Source of the DNA: a phage
Direction: 5' to 3' (one strand)
DNA: 64,000 nt
NCBI GenBank assembly: GCA_014685065.1
Contig: GCA_014685065.1_4092.2
Shown: positions 1 through 64,000 of the stretch, piece by piece
How positions within the stretch are numbered: position 1 is the first letter of the stretch
How the letters are laid out: every line of letters starts with the position of its first letter
Position numbers and translations under genes: made by a program
Notes under the pieces: model-generated
Told to the model about the DNA's origin: nothing
What the model saw: the letters and a program-made list of their open reading frames with translations, nothing else
The model's database searches: none

Positions 1-9
1 TACAAAACA

Positions 10-252
10 TTGTTCAACCGAATGTACCCAAATCATCCAATTGTAGTTGTACTTTTGATTCTTTCAGTTTCTCAAATAATCGTTGAAACTACAATGGGTA
101 TCAGTAGTGTACATTATAGTTTTGGCACTATAGTAATTATTACTATGCTTATTGCATACATTTTAGTACTTGGATATGGTATCTTTGGTAATATTGGTAT
201 GAAAATGTATCATCGAATTAAAACATTACGTGATAATCTACCGGAGCGTTGA
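10..252 (+). CDS. small hydrophobic membrane protein with basic C-tail; frame open to window edge, may be 5'-truncated
   Basis: ORF track (TTG at 10, ATG at 22); hydrophobic runs; resembles 254..598 and the 6603..9383 family. Confidence 0.4.
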   Translation: MFNRMYPNHPIVVVLLILSVSQIIVETTMGISSVHYSFGTIVIITMLIAYILVLGYGIFGNIGMKMYHRIKTLRDNLPER

Positions 253-253
253 T

Positions 254-598
254 ATGTATAATTTGAACCTAATCTCATATATTATAACAACACTGTTTAC
301 ATTCTATGCCTTTGTTGGTATAATCCTACTGTACTTTAAATTTTATAAAGTGTTTAACCGTTTCTATCCTTCAATGGAGAATGAGTTTTTCTTTGTGTTG
401 TACGTATGTTACACATTAATGGCTACATGTTTCACTGTAGCCGATGGTGTCATCGGCATTAAAACTGCTTCCCCAAATGGTAGTACGCTGGTTGCATTTA
501 TTCTTACTGGATTCCTTGCAACTTATATTGCCTTCATTACAACATGGTCAGTGGTTGAATTTCTCTTGCGACTACGAAAGAATATGCCGAATCGATAG
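254..598 (+). CDS. small membrane protein paralog
   Basis: ATG at 254 one nt after previous stop; hydrophobic; C-terminal LRLRKNMPNR basic tail like 7282..7629. Confidence 0.5.
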   Translation: MYNLNLISYIITTLFTFYAFVGIILLYFKFYKVFNRFYPSMENEFFFVLYVCYTLMATCFTVADGVIGIKTASPNGSTLVAFILTGFLATYIAFITTWSVVEFLLRLRKNMPNR

Positions 599-607
599 GA
601 GACATAT

Positions 608-862
608 ATGTTTGCGTTGCGTAATAAAAACACTAAAGAATTATTATGTATTGATACCGTATGGGATTGTGCGGGATCAACTACAGTTCTTGAAGAAGGA
701 ACTGGATATTGCGTGTTTGTTGTACATGATAGGAATGAACTCGAATTATTACTTGCTGAGTTCAATGCTGGTGGTAATCCTAACTGTACTGAATACCCTG
801 AGATTATCAATCCAGCACCACCAGGCTCTTATGAAATTCTACAACTGTGGGAGTTGAAGTAA
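608..862 (+). CDS. hypothetical protein
   Basis: ORF track; SD-like GGAGA upstream. Confidence 0.5.
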   Translation: MFALRNKNTKELLCIDTVWDCAGSTTVLEEGTGYCVFVVHDRNELELLLAEFNAGGNPNCTEYPEIINPAPPGSYEILQLWELK

Positions 863-1242
863 TGCGTCAAATGCACAAAGTAACCGAGCTAAACAAGCGT
901 CTGGTTAAACAATCAATGTTCGAGGATAAAGAGTCTTATTATAACTTTAAACGTGCAGTAGAGGCTGCTATCCACATTCAGAAGCTTAAAGAACGTGGTT
1001 GTATTATTCTGGAAAATGGTTCGGAAGTTGTAACGGATGACTTTAGTGTAGCGTTTGATGTTTCACCTGACGGGACGCTATCAATGCCCCGCTTAGGAAC
1101 TGGAAACATGACTGTTTGGGTTGGCTTCACTATGGGGAATGTACCTGGTACTGTGTACGTAGATGATGCAGAATTGAAAGACAGTTTCAAAAACTTATCT
1201 TATCTTGAACCACAATACGCACATGAAATGAATTTATTTTGA
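862..1242 (+). CDS. hypothetical protein
   Basis: TAATG overlap with previous gene; ATG at 862 inside tracked ORF 847..1242. Confidence 0.55.
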   Translation: MRQMHKVTELNKRLVKQSMFEDKESYYNFKRAVEAAIHIQKLKERGCIILENGSEVVTDDFSVAFDVSPDGTLSMPRLGTGNMTVWVGFTMGNVPGTVYVDDAELKDSFKNLSYLEPQYAHEMNLF

Positions 1243-1243
1243 G

Positions 1244-1300
1244 TTGACAAACACATTCAGTACTGTATAATGCTTATCAAGGGGATGAACTTCTCATCCC
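1244..1300 (+). promoter_or_regulatory. sigma70-like promoter (TTGACA 1244-1249, TATAAT 1266-1271, 16-bp spacer) plus leader hairpin GGGATGA-N5-TCATCCC
   Basis: hexamers and inverted repeat read directly; precedes 1319 gene. Confidence 0.55.
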
Positions 1301-1318
1301 TACAATCGAGGAACTACC

Positions 1319-61639: not shown

Positions 61640-61995
61640 CATATGATTATTCTATGTACTATTATAAGTTACCTAAAGGATGGGACTTGTGCTGTAATCT
61701 TATTAAGGGCGACTCGGAACATGAGTTGAGTTTATATATGCATTACAAAGATTCTTGTTTTAAATTTATTCATGTATCACATGACGACTATGACTATGAA
61801 TCTGAGAGTCTTATAGATTATACAGTACTGGACGATGGGGAACTATTTCAGGCTGCATTAGTGTTTGATAAGAATAAGTACTCCTGTACATTTGAAGAAA
61901 TGGTTTCTTTGCAAAATGAAATGAAGAGATTTGAAAAAGAAAACGTATTTAATCCATCCCCATCAAGAACGAATAATTATTATTTCAATATATGA
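61636..61995 (+). CDS. EEYFQ-family protein
   Basis: ATGA overlap; DDGELFQAALVFDKNKY. Confidence 0.6.
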   Translation: MTYDYSMYYYKLPKGWDLCCNLIKGDSEHELSLYMHYKDSCFKFIHVSHDDYDYESESLIDYTVLDDGELFQAALVFDKNKYSCTFEEMVSLQNEMKRFEKENVFNPSPSRTNNYYFNI

Positions 61996-62004
61996 GATTA
62001 TAAA

Positions 62005-62496
62005 ATGACATTACAGAGTTCATTGGAAAAAGCAAAGAAGATTCATGAGTACATGAATATGGCAAAAGAAGGTTCAGTTTACGGTGTTTTCAAAGACACA
62101 AGTACTCAATATTATGTACCGGATAACCTCCTTAATAATGACGACTCAGATACAGAAACGTGCGTACTGGATACAGAAACGTGTGTACTGGATACCGACC
62201 CTAATGATTATGAATGCTTCATTAATATGCATAATGAGTACATGGTCTATATTAATGATACAGATACCATCTACAGTACTGATAGCGATTCCGATGACAT
62301 TATAATTCCGAGTGAAGTACTGGAAGGTCCGTGGGATAGTGAAGAGTATTACTTCCAACAAAGTACTGTATACGATGATGAAGTACTTGATGTTATTATA
62401 ATTATGTGGTACTTTAAAAGTATTGGTTCTGGGAACTTCTATTTCGATTACAAATACGTAAAGAAAACTGTAGATAACGGTATTAACAGGGGTTGA
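62005..62496 (+). CDS. EEYFQ-family protein (SEEYYFQQS subgroup); internal 21-bp tandem duplication
   Basis: GPWDSEEYYFQQSTVYD; DTETCVLDTETCVLD. Confidence 0.6.
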   Translation: MTLQSSLEKAKKIHEYMNMAKEGSVYGVFKDTSTQYYVPDNLLNNDDSDTETCVLDTETCVLDTDPNDYECFINMHNEYMVYINDTDTIYSTDSDSDDIIIPSEVLEGPWDSEEYYFQQSTVYDDEVLDVIIIMWYFKSIGSGNFYFDYKYVKKTVDNGINRG

Positions 62497-62497
62497 A

Positions 62498-62968
62498 ATG
62501 AGTTTAGAAAGAGCATTAGAGATTGCGAAGTTAATTGATTTATGCAGCAAAGAAATTGTAGCAAATTGTCTTAATGGATATCTATTCAAGGAAGGTAAAT
62601 CATATTGTCGAATGAGATACGATGACAGTAGTGAGTACATTCACATGTATGAAGAAAACTTAGATTCTTCTGAAACAACACTCAATGGGTGTGATGTTAA
62701 TTTGGAAGATAATTACATGTACTTCTGTCGTGATGCTGATATTTTAATACAAGATTCTGACATTATATCTGGTGCAGCAGAGAAACATCTTCCGTATTCA
62801 GTACTGGATAATGACTGGGGAAGTGAAGAGTACTACTTCCAGCAGAATACGATCTACGCAGAAGATGTACTTGACAAGCTTGTCATTCTGTGGTACTTTA
62901 ATAATACAGATTGTCCTAGCTTCTATTTGGACTTGGATCTACTACGAGTTATTAAAGAGGATATATGA
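62498..62968 (+). CDS. EEYFQ-family protein
   Basis: DWGSEEYYFQQNTIY. Confidence 0.6.
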   Translation: MSLERALEIAKLIDLCSKEIVANCLNGYLFKEGKSYCRMRYDDSSEYIHMYEENLDSSETTLNGCDVNLEDNYMYFCRDADILIQDSDIISGAAEKHLPYSVLDNDWGSEEYYFQQNTIYAEDVLDKLVILWYFNNTDCPSFYLDLDLLRVIKEDI

Positions 62969-63405
62969 GTTTAGCAAGTGCACTTGAACTAGCACACAGA
63001 ATACATCACTTCCACGATAACATAAAAAGTGGGTTCTATGGTGATAAAGTAAGTGCATTTGGTGATGAGTATTATCTATCAGGTATAAAGACATACTCTG
63101 ATGATATTTTACTTATGGGACAGGATAAAGACAATACTATACAGTACTCTTCATGTAGTCAATATACTAATTTTTTTGTATATATTCCAGGTACTAAGAT
63201 TACTTTTGACACATCAAATACACCTGTTGACTTCGGAGTACTTGATGGCCCGTGGGGTACTGAAGAGTATTACTTCCAACAGAGTCTCATTTTTAACCAA
63301 GAAATGCTTGATTCATTGGTTGTGTTGTGGTACTTTAAGGAATTGAATTTTGAACCATTCTTTCTTGACTGGGGATCATGTGAGTATTTAATTTCAGGGG
63401 AATAA
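62965..63405 (+). CDS. EEYFQ-family protein
   Basis: GPWGTEEYYFQQSLIF. Confidence 0.6.
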   Translation: MSLASALELAHRIHHFHDNIKSGFYGDKVSAFGDEYYLSGIKTYSDDILLMGQDKDNTIQYSSCSQYTNFFVYIPGTKITFDTSNTPVDFGVLDGPWGTEEYYFQQSLIFNQEMLDSLVVLWYFKELNFEPFFLDWGSCEYLISGE

Positions 63406-63407
63406 TA

Positions 63408-63896
63408 ATGTCATTACAAAGTGCATTGAAAGAAGCAAAGAAAATTCATGAGTTCATGATTATGGTACAGGAAGGTTCAGTACCAGGTGTATACAAAACA
63501 TCAGATACGGAATTCTTCGTTAAGGATAGAGATGATTATGACGATTCAGAGGTATGTGCAGAAACATTAGTACTGCACACTGATACTGGTGACAGTGATA
63601 ACTGTGAATATCATATGTACAATCAGTACATTAGTTATTGCCGTAATGAAGATATTACCATCTACAACACAGATAGTGATGCTGATGACACTATCATTCC
63701 TTATTCAGTACTGGAAGGACCGTGGGATAGTGAAGAATATTACTTCCAGAATAGTACGTTGTACAATGAAGAAGAATTAGATGTTATTGTAATTATGTGG
63801 TATTTCAAAAGTATTGACTCCAGTAGTTTCTATTTTGATTATGAATATGTAGAGAATACTGTAGGAGAAGGTAATGTCATTACAAAGTGCTCTTGA
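63408..63896 (+). CDS. EEYFQ-family protein
   Basis: GPWDSEEYYFQNSTLY. Confidence 0.6.
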   Translation: MSLQSALKEAKKIHEFMIMVQEGSVPGVYKTSDTEFFVKDRDDYDDSEVCAETLVLHTDTGDSDNCEYHMYNQYISYCRNEDITIYNTDSDADDTIIPYSVLEGPWDSEEYYFQNSTLYNEEELDVIVIMWYFKSIDSSSFYFDYEYVENTVGEGNVITKCS

Positions 63897-64000
63897 AAAA
63901 GCAAAAGAACTACATGGATACTTTGAAGATATAAAGGCCGGAAAGTTCAAAGAAGTTTACAAAGCCGAGAACGGTAACTACTACAAAGATGAAATGTATA
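63874..64000 (+). CDS. EEYFQ-family protein, 3'-truncated by window end
   Basis: N-terminus MSLQSALEKAKELH matches MSLxSALExAKxIH of the three preceding genes. Confidence 0.5.
   Translation, partial: MSLQSALEKAKELHGYFEDIKAGKFKEVYKAENGNYYKDEMY

What the first reader, a model, noticed from the sequence alone, without database searches (positions are those of the whole stretch)
1..64000. Palindromic AGTACT(G) is heavily over-represented and concentrated in non-coding DNA
By eye I count 14 AGTACT sites in 26.28-27.60 kb alone, and the motif is part of nearly every promoter (AAGTACTTGCAA, AGTACTGTATAAT) and terminator (GCCAGTAC..GTACTGGC). Simple composition would predict on the order of 20 in the whole window. 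The enrichment could reflect a promoter UP-element, a binding site for a phage or host protein, or a methylation target, and may be diagnostic for this phage lineage.
Basis: seen in the sequence. Interest (0 to 1): 0.5.

Follow-up and report, generated by a model that had tools for sequence, protein, structure and literature searches.

The report
Iterated AGTACT word in jumbo phage
This jumbo E. coli phage and its enterobacterial relatives keep the six-letter palindrome AGTACT about ten times more often than chance, inside genes as well as at their early promoters, which points to an unidentified protein that reads this word on phage DNA.

Summary
AGTACT occurs 248 times in the window against about 21 expected, and it is the only enriched palindromic hexamer. 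The window comes from a 121Q/PBECO4-like jumbo coliphage (Asteriusvirus).

62% of sites lie inside genes, in all three reading frames. In a complete relative, 52% of Ser-Thr dipeptides are written AGT-ACT. Outside the terminal repeat, coding and intergenic densities are equal (about 2.6 versus 2.9 per kb).

The non-coding excess belongs to the roughly 20-kb terminal repeat (about 26.36-46.4 kb). There, 27 of 32 sigma-70-type early promoters carry the word in one of two fixed positions: abutting the -35 hexamer, or 1-2 nt before the -10 hexamer. The same architecture is found in Cronobacter phage GAP32. Terminator use is limited to one small hairpin family.

Enrichment of 7-11-fold holds in four enterobacterial genera but not in PA5oct or Atu_ph07. 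A phi92-like coliphage has no AGTACT at all. Sites are conserved more than their flanks.

I rejected SlmA, the clade's CpG methylase, a repair drive and dispersed repeats as explanations. My best inference is a recognition word for an unidentified two-fold-symmetric reader. I found no description of this in the papers I searched.

The parts
1..64000 (.). All 248 AGTACT sites (palindromic, so strand-free). 155 are inside ORFs, 91 intergenic and 2 straddle a boundary.
26357..46400 (+). Inferred direct terminal repeat and early-gene region, the AGTACT-dense zone. It holds 123 sites; intergenic density is 11.6/kb and coding density 3.6/kb. The left boundary aligns to base 1 of fEgEco12. The right boundary is inferred by homology, in the 46,300-46,518 spacer. 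The last site before the cold zone is at 46,315.
   Evidence: the 20,993-bp DTR of fEgEco12 is from PMC13070987
26094..28036 (.). Non-coding leader that spans the inferred genome terminus. It holds 17 AGTACT sites, mostly in the form cAGTACTGAa, plus short tandem repeats and an inverted Chi pair.
30883..30915 (+). Example early promoter with both positions filled. AGTACT at 30883 overlaps the first T of the -35 hexamer TTGCAA (30888). AGTACT at 30903 ends 1 nt before the -10 hexamer TATAAT (30910-30915).
33424..33459 (+). Example of the second promoter subtype: AGTACT-A-TTGACA ... AGTACT-GG-CATAAT. The same layout occurs at 33718 and 36513.
35934..35961 (+). Example with only the -10 position filled: TTGACA, then 16 nt containing AGTACT-G, then TATAAT. 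The same class occurs at 26731, 36206, 38674, 39920, 40279 and 43140.
15285..19805 (-). Family of intrinsic terminators of the form GCCAGTAC-nnn-GTACTGGC plus a T-run, placed after the RCC1-like paralogue genes (hairpins at 15287, 16097, 17357, 18577 and 19787). A related hairpin lies at 9391.
46316..61020 (.). AGTACT-cold zone directly after the repeat. There are no sites in 46,316-50,901 or in 53,306-61,020, and 14 sites in between. Both the window and fEgEco12 lack the enrichment here.

Best explanation
AGTACT is an exact six-base palindromic word kept at about one copy per 260-400 bp along the whole roughly 350-kb genome of RaK2-like jumbo phages that infect Enterobacterales. Shown here: it is maintained at the DNA level, in all reading frames through synonymous codon choice and in intergenic DNA alike. 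Individual sites are under purifying selection. The word is about 50 times denser than in a sample of E. coli DNA. It is also built into the sigma-70-type early promoters of the terminal repeat at two fixed positions, one touching the -35 hexamer and one 1-2 nt upstream of the -10 hexamer, 20-22 bp apart. Inferred: the word is the recognition site of a two-fold-symmetric, sequence-specific protein that acts on double-stranded DNA. That protein would be specified or recruited by this phage clade and is not yet identified. Genome-wide it would tag or coat phage DNA in preference to host DNA. At early promoters, where paired sites bracket the -35 hexamer and spacer, it would control RNA polymerase access, most simply by shutting off early transcription. 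This would resemble SPO1 TF1 or phi29 p6, but with self-recognition by a sequence word instead of a modified base.
For: Enrichment is 12-fold in the window and 1115 against 116.5 in the complete relative fEgEco12. In coding DNA, 416 of 796 Ser-Thr dipeptides are AGT-ACT (122 expected). The other two frames give 145 against 27.6 and 273 against 53. The ST dipeptide itself is raised, at 798 against 533. Sequence information is confined to the 6-bp core plus 0.3 bit at the symmetric C(-1) and G(+1) positions, and the two flanks vary independently. This fits two-fold recognition of duplex DNA rather than an RNA or repeat-element signal. Between the window and fEgEco12 (87% identity overall), 77% of coding sites are conserved, against 55-68% for flanking hexamers. 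For intergenic sites the figures are 85% against about 60%. The pressure is shared by Asteriusvirus, RaK2, GAP32, CBB and Serratia BF. About 30% of sites in orthologous genes fall at identical positions between genera, where chance predicts 0.1. Promoter positions are filled in 27 of 32 promoters of the repeat, and the same two positions are used in GAP32. In the genome body, density is the same in coding and intergenic DNA. Spacing there is slightly more even than random (CV 0.91 against 1.00 +/- 0.04), with no gap over 2 kb in 293 kb. A 50-kb E. coli K-12 sample has 3 sites.
Against: No reader was identified. Pfam found no DNA-binding domain in 10 of the larger genes of the repeat. The HTH_37 regulator and small SAM methyltransferase of CBB/GAP32 have no homologue in fEgEco12. 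A repressor with about 1000 extra sites in its own genome would be heavily titrated, so the genome-wide role and the promoter role may have different readers. A sharply bounded exact word, with one-mismatch variants only 1.1-2.3x enriched, looks more like an enzyme site (methylase, nickase) than a typical transcription-factor motif. A 14.7-kb zone right after the repeat lacks the enrichment, so whatever the function is, it is not needed everywhere. Shared sites between genera could partly reflect parallel encoding at conserved Ser-Thr positions rather than retention.
Confidence: 0.5

Rival explanations
1. AGTACT is the target of a DNA methyltransferase, phage or host. The mark, not a bound protein, would be the functional entity. 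It would protect against ScaI/Eco255I-type restriction and would set early promoter activity by methylation state, as Dam does at some promoters.
For: The signal is an exact 6-bp palindromic word with sharp boundaries, like a type II recognition site. A phi92-like coliphage that also purges palindromes has 0 AGTACT against 30 expected in 100 kb. AGTACT may therefore be a restriction target among coliphage hosts, which these jumbo phages would have to neutralise. The clade encodes at least two methylases: a C5 enzyme and a PF05869 Dam-type enzyme.
Against: Bisulfite data reported for RaK2 place the C5 methylation at CpG, and AGTACT has no CpG. The C5 enzyme is DNMT3-like. PF05869 enzymes are generally described as GATC methylases (from my own knowledge, not tested here). 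Protection alone explains tolerance of a site, not a 10-fold excess kept by codon choice. No methylome or ScaI digest was found in the papers read.
Confidence: 0.15
2. The word is a loading or initiation site for the phage DNA machinery, for example a strict recognition site for the T4-type gp61 primase or for a nicking or recombination enzyme. It would be spread evenly so that either strand can be served wherever a fork travels.
For: Density is the same in coding and intergenic DNA of the genome body. Spacing is mildly regular, with no gap over 2 kb in 293 kb. A palindrome serves both strands. The extended form CAGTACTG carries CTG and GTA triplets on both strands (read from the sequence; the link to primases is from my own knowledge).
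Against: Known primases need only 3-5 bases. The two fixed promoter positions are not explained. Gaps of 7.7 kb and 4.6 kb without sites lie right after the repeat.
Confidence: 0.1
3. There is no function. A mutational or repair bias, such as very-short-patch-like correction tied to a methylase as proposed for cyanobacterial HIP1, drives near-cognate sequences to AGTACT.
For: The signal is genome-wide, blind to reading frame and lineage-specific, as expected for a drive.
Against: One-mismatch neighbours are not depleted. They are 1.1-2.3x enriched, including the deamination products AGTATT and AATACT. Long-resident Asteriusvirus DNA at 46.3-61.0 kb lacks the enrichment in two genomes that are only 76% identical there. 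The fixed promoter positions are conserved between genera.
Confidence: 0.08
4. The word is simply a building block of sigma-70 promoters (an UP-like or spacer element) and of terminator stems, and the coding copies are a side effect.
For: 27 of 32 early promoters of the repeat carry it. With the preceding A-tract it partly matches the proximal UP subsite. The CBB authors describe UP-like elements at their RpoD-like promoters. A family of 5-6 terminator stems uses it.
Against: 62% of window sites and over 85% of fEgEco12 sites are inside genes, placed by synonymous codon choice. The second position, -19..-14, matches no known RNA polymerase contact (TG falls at -14/-13, not -15/-14). Only 1 of 24 terminator-like hairpins in the repeat uses the word. 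The RpoD-like promoter sequences of CBB returned by the supplement search lack it, although CBB is 11x enriched.
Confidence: 0.04
5. The host nucleoid-occlusion protein SlmA is the reader. Its consensus site is GTGAGTACTCAC, with an AGTACT core. Phage DNA would then soak up or activate SlmA to block host cell division.
For: The SlmA site has the same 6-bp core. All enriched phages infect Enterobacterales, and the Pseudomonas and Agrobacterium relatives lack the enrichment.
Against: SlmA needs G1, T2, A4 and G5, and a purine at position 3. In fEgEco12 there is no full SlmA-type site, only 31 of 1948 half-sites have GTR, and the favoured base at position 3 is C. SlmA tolerates C or T at position 6, but the phage enriches only the T form.
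Confidence: 0.03

Closest known systems
HIP1 (GCGATCGC), the highly iterated palindrome of cyanobacteria
   Same: Both are exact short palindromes, many-fold over-represented, found in coding and non-coding DNA, lineage-specific, and without an established reader.
   Different: AGTACT is a hexamer in a virus. No cognate methylase is evident. It is also built into early promoters at fixed positions. One-mismatch neighbours are not depleted, which argues against the repair-drive model discussed for HIP1. (The HIP1 properties are from my own knowledge.)
SPO1 TF1 and phi29 p6: abundant phage DNA-binding proteins that prefer phage DNA and repress early promoters
   Same: The proposed working mode is the same: genome-wide occupancy of phage DNA plus preferred sites that overlap early promoters.
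   Different: TF1 discriminates by the modified base hmU, and p6 by DNA shape and periodicity. Here discrimination would be by a sequence word. No homologous protein was sought or found, so this is an analogy and not a membership claim. (From my own knowledge.)
Chi (GCTGGTGG) and DNA uptake sequences (DUS/USS)
   Same: All are short exact words kept at high density by selection on their number rather than on each copy. DUS also recur as inverted pairs in terminators. Chi itself is enriched in this window, at 14 against 0.6 expected.
   Different: Chi and DUS are asymmetric and orientation-dependent and are read by known host machines. AGTACT is a perfect palindrome with symmetric flanks.
SlmA-binding site GTGAGTACTCAC
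   Same: The central hexamer is identical.
   Different: The flanking bases that SlmA requires are absent from the phage sites.
ScaI/Eco255I restriction-modification recognition site
   Same: It is the same hexamer, with the exact, sharply bounded character of a type II site. Another coliphage lineage has purged it completely.
   Different: Restriction sites in phages are normally avoided, as 25 other palindromes are in this very genome. This one is enriched 10-fold.

Membership tests
Highly iterated palindrome (HIP-type genomic word) | An exact palindrome many-fold above composition-based expectation | tested here: met
   248 against about 21; 1115 against 116.5 in fEgEco12
Highly iterated palindrome (HIP-type genomic word) | Present in coding DNA in all frames as well as in non-coding DNA | tested here: met
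   Frames 55/36/64; codon-choice tests; 2.55/kb against 2.90/kb
Highly iterated palindrome (HIP-type genomic word) | Lineage-specific | tested here: met
   Present in four enterobacterial genera; absent from PA5oct, Atu_ph07 and Justusliebigvirus
Highly iterated palindrome (HIP-type genomic word) | A cognate DNA methyltransferase is present | tested here: inconclusive
   A C5 enzyme reported as CpG-specific and a PF05869 Dam-type enzyme of unknown specificity. No methylome is available.
Sigma-70 promoter UP element | An A/T-rich element at -40 to -60 only, contacting the alpha C-terminal domain | tested here: not met
   The word lies at -41..-36 but equally at -19..-14, and most copies are inside genes
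Intrinsic terminator stem | The word forms the G+C-rich inverted repeat that precedes a T-run | tested here: not met
   True for 5-6 paralogous hairpins, but for only 1 of 24 terminator-like sites in 26.3-46.3 kb
SlmA-binding site | G1, T2, A4, G5 and a purine at position 3 in each half-site | tested here: not met
   0 full sites; GTR flank in 31 of 1948 half-sites; C preferred at position 3
Dispersed repeat (REP or MITE-like element) | Conserved sequence extends beyond the core | tested here: not met
   Flank information is 0.04 bit or less beyond +/-1. No Rfam match in the window.
Chi-like or KOPS-like oriented word | Asymmetric sequence with strand or orientation bias | tested here: not met
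   The word is a perfect palindrome with symmetric flanks
Methylated restriction-type site (ScaI/Eco255I class) | A modified base at AGTACT in virion DNA | not testable with these tools
   No methylome or ScaI digest appears in the papers read

The most novel reading that the evidence does not exclude
A clade of jumbo phages with canonical bases marks its own DNA with an iterated sequence word instead of a modified base. AGTACT, about 50 times denser than in host DNA, would be read by a clade-specific factor. That factor would let phage processes (transcription timing at early promoters, plus a genome-wide process such as protection, coating or priming) tell phage DNA from host DNA. This would be a sequence-encoded equivalent of the hmC/hmU self-marking of T4 and SPO1.
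Probability: 0.3. Interest if true: 0.8.

Novelty: new variant of a known kind. Interest (0 to 1): 0.62.

Why it matters
Over-represented exact words such as Chi, uptake sequences and HIP1 are rare, and each known case pointed to a dedicated molecular machine. This word shapes codon choice, and even dipeptide content, across 350-kb genomes in at least four phage genera. It also sits at fixed positions in their early promoters. In the same genomes 25 other palindromes have been purged, and another coliphage lineage has purged AGTACT itself. That combination predicts a specific, discoverable reader protein or enzyme. It also gives a simple sequence signature for recognising this clade in metagenomes. 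For phage engineering, recoding or moving these sites may affect viability or gene timing.

Tried and rejected
1. SlmA as reader: rejected on flank requirements.
2. The clade's C5 methyltransferase as the cause: it is DNMT3-like and reported as CpG-specific in RaK2. Its 50%-identical homologue occurs in Justusliebigvirus VEcB, a coliphage with zero AGTACT.
3. A very-short-patch or repair drive: one-mismatch neighbours are not depleted, and a long-resident cold zone exists.
4. Codon or tRNA bias: the excess is in all three frames and in intergenic DNA.
5. A dispersed repeat or RNA element: there is no flank conservation and no Rfam hit.
6. LexA box (TACTG...CAGTA half-sites): considered from memory and dropped, because the arrangement is inverted and the signal is only 6-8 bp long.
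7. Candidate readers: the CBB/GAP32 HTH_37 regulator and small SAM methyltransferase have no homologue in fEgEco12. Pfam found no DNA-binding domain in 10 genes of the repeat, nor in three annotated 'regulators' of fEgEco12.
8. The proteins of the AGTACT-free island have only unknown-function PHROG matches.
9. Literature: searches for AGTACT with jumbo phage, bacteriophage or methyltransferase terms, and reading of the fEgEco12, Sharanji, RaK2, CBB and jumbo-phage comparative papers, found no description of the enrichment.

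
Full report
**What the window is.** Megablast places the window in the 121Q/PBECO4/phAPEC6/G17 group of jumbo coliphages (Asteriusvirus), at 88-97% identity to many records. I fetched the complete genome of a relative, fEgEco12 (PP777464.1, 374,733 bp), with its annotation. Its paper reports 20,993-bp direct terminal repeats and normal cutting by EcoRI, NsiI, SpeI, ClaI, AflII, NruI and HindIII, so there is no bulk hypermodification. Base 1 of fEgEco12 aligns to window position 26,357. The repeat ends, by homology, in the 46,300-46,518 spacer. The window therefore holds three parts:
- the right end of the unique region, which contains an array of RCC1-like paralogues on the minus strand at 10.5-22 kb;
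- a 1.9-kb non-coding leader;
- one copy of the terminal repeat with its small early genes, followed by the DNA that comes after the left repeat copy.

**The observation.** AGTACT occurs 248 times against 20.7 +/- 4.5 in dinucleotide-preserving shuffles and about 21 under order-0 and order-1 models. Higher-order models give 47, 98 and 208. That is because the sub-words are themselves made by the motif: 40% of all GTAC tetramers lie inside AGTACT. No other palindromic hexamer exceeds 1.9-fold. The flanks add little. C precedes the word in about 45% of sites and G follows in about 47%, which is 0.3 bit each. The two sides vary independently, and nothing is conserved beyond them. The signal is therefore a sharply bounded word with two-fold symmetry. 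It is not a repeat element, and Rfam finds nothing in the window.

**Where the sites are.** I used a simple ORF model (162 ORFs, 84% coding).
- 155 sites are coding (16.4 expected), split 55/36/64 over the three frames.
- 91 sites are intergenic (4.6 expected).

So the motif is denser between genes (9.1 against 2.9 per kb), but most copies are inside genes. The intergenic excess is local. It is 11.6/kb in the terminal repeat, 6.0/kb to its left and 3.2/kb to its right. In fEgEco12 beyond 40 kb, coding and intergenic densities are 2.55 and 2.90 per kb. AGTACT is found all along that genome, at 11-40 copies per 10 kb in the body and 62-75 in the repeats, for a total of 1115 against 116.5 expected.

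**It is held at the DNA level.** In fEgEco12:
- 416 of 796 Ser-Thr dipeptides are written AGT-ACT (122 expected from codon usage);
- the nAG-TAC-Tnn frame gives 145 against 27.6;
- the nnA-GTA-CTn frame gives 273 against 53;
- the Ser-Thr dipeptide itself is raised (798 against 533 expected), while Thr-Ser is not.

Aligned to fEgEco12 (87% identity overall), 77% of coding sites in the window are intact, against 55-68% for hexamers 6-18 bp away. For intergenic sites the figures are 85% against about 60%. One-mismatch variants are 1.1-2.3x enriched, not depleted, including the C-to-T products. This fits decay from a selected word and argues against a repair drive that converts neighbours into the word. 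In the genome body, spacing is slightly more even than random (CV 0.91 against 1.00 +/- 0.04), and no gap exceeds 2 kb in 293 kb.

**A cold zone.** Directly after the repeat there are no sites in 46,316-50,901 and none in 53,306-61,020. The equivalent part of fEgEco12 is also poor in sites. Yet this DNA is found only in Asteriusvirus, and the two genomes are only about 76% identical there, so it is a long-term resident of the genus. Its proteins have no known function. This argues against a uniform mutational process and shows that the function is not needed everywhere.

**Promoters and terminators.** The repeat holds 32 plus-strand matches to TTG(A/C/T)(A/C/T)A-N16-17-(T/C/G)A(T/G)AAT. In 27 of them AGTACT sits in one of two positions:
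- Next to the -35 hexamer: it overlaps the first T of the hexamer (AGTACTTGCAA) or lies one base upstream (AGTACT-A-TTGACA). 16 promoters have this.
- Next to the -10 hexamer: it ends 1-2 nt before it (AGTACT-G-TATAAT or AGTACT-GG-CATAAT). 17 promoters have this.
- Six promoters have both, 20 bp apart.

Every TTGCAA promoter in the repeat has the upstream copy. In Cronobacter phage GAP32, a different genus, the first 22 kb holds 140 sites, and its promoters use the same two positions, often both, 20-22 bp apart. The placement is therefore functional and old, and not just recent duplication of promoter cassettes. The upstream copy plus its A-tract partly resembles a proximal UP subsite. The copy at -19..-14 fits no known polymerase contact, because TG falls at -14/-13.

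Terminators are a minor use. Only 1 of 24 terminator-like hairpins in 26.3-46.3 kb contains the word.

**Lineage distribution.**

| Phage (genus or group) | Host | Region sampled | AGTACT observed | Expected |
|---|---|---|---|---|
| RaK2 (Alcyoneusvirus) | Klebsiella | 30 kb | 73 | 6.4 |
| GAP32 (Mimasvirus) | Cronobacter | 30 kb | 64 | 7.2 |
| CBB (Mimasvirus) | Pectobacterium | 35 kb | 111 | 9.9 |
| BF (Eneladusvirus) | Serratia | 30 kb | 58 | 8.7 |
| PA5oct (more distant relative) | Pseudomonas | 25 kb | 1 | 7.3 |
| Atu_ph07 (more distant relative) | Agrobacterium | 30 kb | 1 | 3.8 |
| Justusliebigvirus VEcB (phi92-like) | not stated in record (genus of coliphages) | 100 kb | 0 | 30 |

Justusliebigvirus VEcB also purges palindromes. 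In orthologous genes, RaK2 and fEgEco12 share 13 exactly homologous sites out of 45 and 38 (chance 0.09). GAP32 and fEgEco12 share 10 out of 33 and 31. Part of this may be parallel encoding at conserved Ser-Thr positions, but it shows the same pressure acting in each genus. A 50-kb sample of E. coli K-12 has 3 sites, so phage DNA is roughly 50 times richer.

**Candidate readers examined.**
- SlmA. Its site GTGAGTACTCAC shares the core, but it needs G1, T2 and a purine at position 3. fEgEco12 has no such full site, only 31 of 1948 half-sites have GTR, and C is the favoured base at position 3.
- The clade's C5 methyltransferase. It is DNMT3-like, and bisulfite sequencing of RaK2 DNA is reported to show CpG methylation. 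AGTACT has no CpG. A 50%-identical homologue also occurs in Justusliebigvirus VEcB, which has no AGTACT at all.
- A PF05869 Dam-type methylase is present, but its specificity is unknown.
- The HTH_37 regulator and small SAM methyltransferase of CBB/GAP32 have no homologue in fEgEco12.
- Pfam finds no DNA-binding domain in ten genes of the repeat.

None of the Asteriusvirus, RaK2, CBB or jumbo-phage comparative papers I read mentions the motif, and text searches for AGTACT with phage terms found nothing relevant.

**Interpretation.** The following is shown:
- an exact palindromic word kept by DNA-level selection across whole genomes of an enterobacterial jumbo-phage clade;
- an extra, position-specific use of the same word in early promoters.

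The following is inferred. The perfect two-fold symmetry, including the flanks, implies recognition of duplex DNA by a symmetric protein or enzyme. The paired promoter copies bracket the -35 hexamer and spacer on one face of the helix, which is the classic position of an operator. The even, frame-blind spread in the body suggests a function on DNA as such: tagging or coating, protection, or loading or priming. The simplest single model is an abundant reader that prefers phage DNA through this word and silences early promoters as it accumulates. This works like SPO1 TF1 or phi29 p6, except that a sequence word takes the place of a modified base. I hold this at about 0.5. A methylation mark (0.15), a priming or loading site (0.10), a neutral drive (0.08), a pure promoter or terminator element (0.04) and SlmA (0.03) are the alternatives.

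**Verdict.** The finding is genuine and stronger than stated, but it was mis-located. It is a genome-wide property of a phage clade, not mainly a non-coding one. It is a new variant of the known class of over-represented genomic words, with an unknown reader that should be straightforward to find by experiment.

Noticed in passing
whole window; also fEgEco12 L001-L008: Many palindromes are completely absent. The window has no GCGC, GGTACC, CGTACG, CCATGG, CTGCAG, GCATGC, TGGCCA, GGATCC, GTCGAC, GAGCTC, CTCGAG, GCTAGC and others. In fEgEco12, 25 palindromic hexamers have zero copies in 375 kb (expected 5-54 each). GCGC is 0 against 245 expected, and the type IIS words GAGACC and CTCCTC are also 0. 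GCGC is also 0 in the RaK2, GAP32, CBB and Serratia BF samples. This looks like an extreme restriction-avoidance signature limited to G+C-rich sites.
   Followed up: partly
window 26943-45083 (sites at 26943(-), 26955, 27802, 32586, 36758, 38221, 39486, 41870, 43278, 45076): The E. coli Chi octamer GCTGGTGG occurs 14 times in the window against 0.6 expected. Nine plus-strand copies lie inside the terminal-repeat part, and there is an inverted pair at 26943/26955. fEgEco12 has 24 forward and 12 reverse copies against 1.7 and 1.3 expected, with 10 forward copies in its first 20 kb. Plus orientation would attenuate RecBCD entering from the right genome end.
   Followed up: partly
window 46316-61020: This is an AGTACT-cold zone right after the terminal repeat, with gaps of 4.6 kb and 7.7 kb. 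It covers a tandem array of overlapping genes of about 70 aa (46.5-51.8 kb) and a block of 110-220-aa genes with only unknown-function PHROG matches. The 54.5-60.2 kb part that I searched matches only Asteriusvirus and closely related Salmonella-phage records.
   Followed up: partly
window 26094-28036: A 1.9-kb non-coding leader spans the inferred physical genome end (about 26357). It has several short 10-13-bp tandem repeats (GTAATCATAA, GTAGTGATCA, ATCAAAAGTA). By eye there are also degenerate GGCTAGATGG-like repeats at about 27.13-27.27 kb. There is no tRNA or Rfam match.
   Followed up: partly
window 35359, 39398, 42702, 44963 (and 29.2 kb): Intergenic modules of about 150-300 bp recur in the repeat. 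Each begins with the hairpin AAAGGGATTGACTCCGGTCAGTCCCTTT, continues with GCTATTATAT and a conserved 'gcccacagggtgc' segment, and ends in an AGTACT-bearing TTGCAA promoter.
   Followed up: no
window 10545-22131, minus strand: An array of eight paralogous genes of about 245-433 aa is annotated in relatives as RCC1-like 'chromosome condensation regulator'. Several are followed by the same GCCAGTAC-nnn-GTACTGGC terminator.
   Followed up: no
window 26000-30000: Megablast of this stretch also hit records labelled Campylobacter phage, Justusliebigvirus, Phapecoctavirus, Vequintavirinae and Acinetobacter, at 80-90% identity over parts of the query. This suggests a short shared segment between unrelated coliphage groups, or mislabelled records. 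I did not determine which part matches.
   Followed up: no
L011-L012 (Justusliebigvirus VEcB, 1-100 kb): This phi92-like phage has zero AGTACT (30 expected) and zero AAGCTT (42 expected) among 18 absent palindromes, but normal GCGC (114 against 108). Its avoidance spectrum differs from that of the jumbo clade and is opposite for AGTACT.
   Followed up: partly
L006:29943-30803 (fEgEco12 g455; outside the window): A 286-aa C5 cytosine methyltransferase has DNMT3 catalytic domains as its best solved-structure matches (E about 1e-23). It is conserved in GAP32 (74%) and in phi92-like/rV5-like phages (50%). The RaK2 paper reports CpG methylation by bisulfite sequencing.
   Followed up: partly
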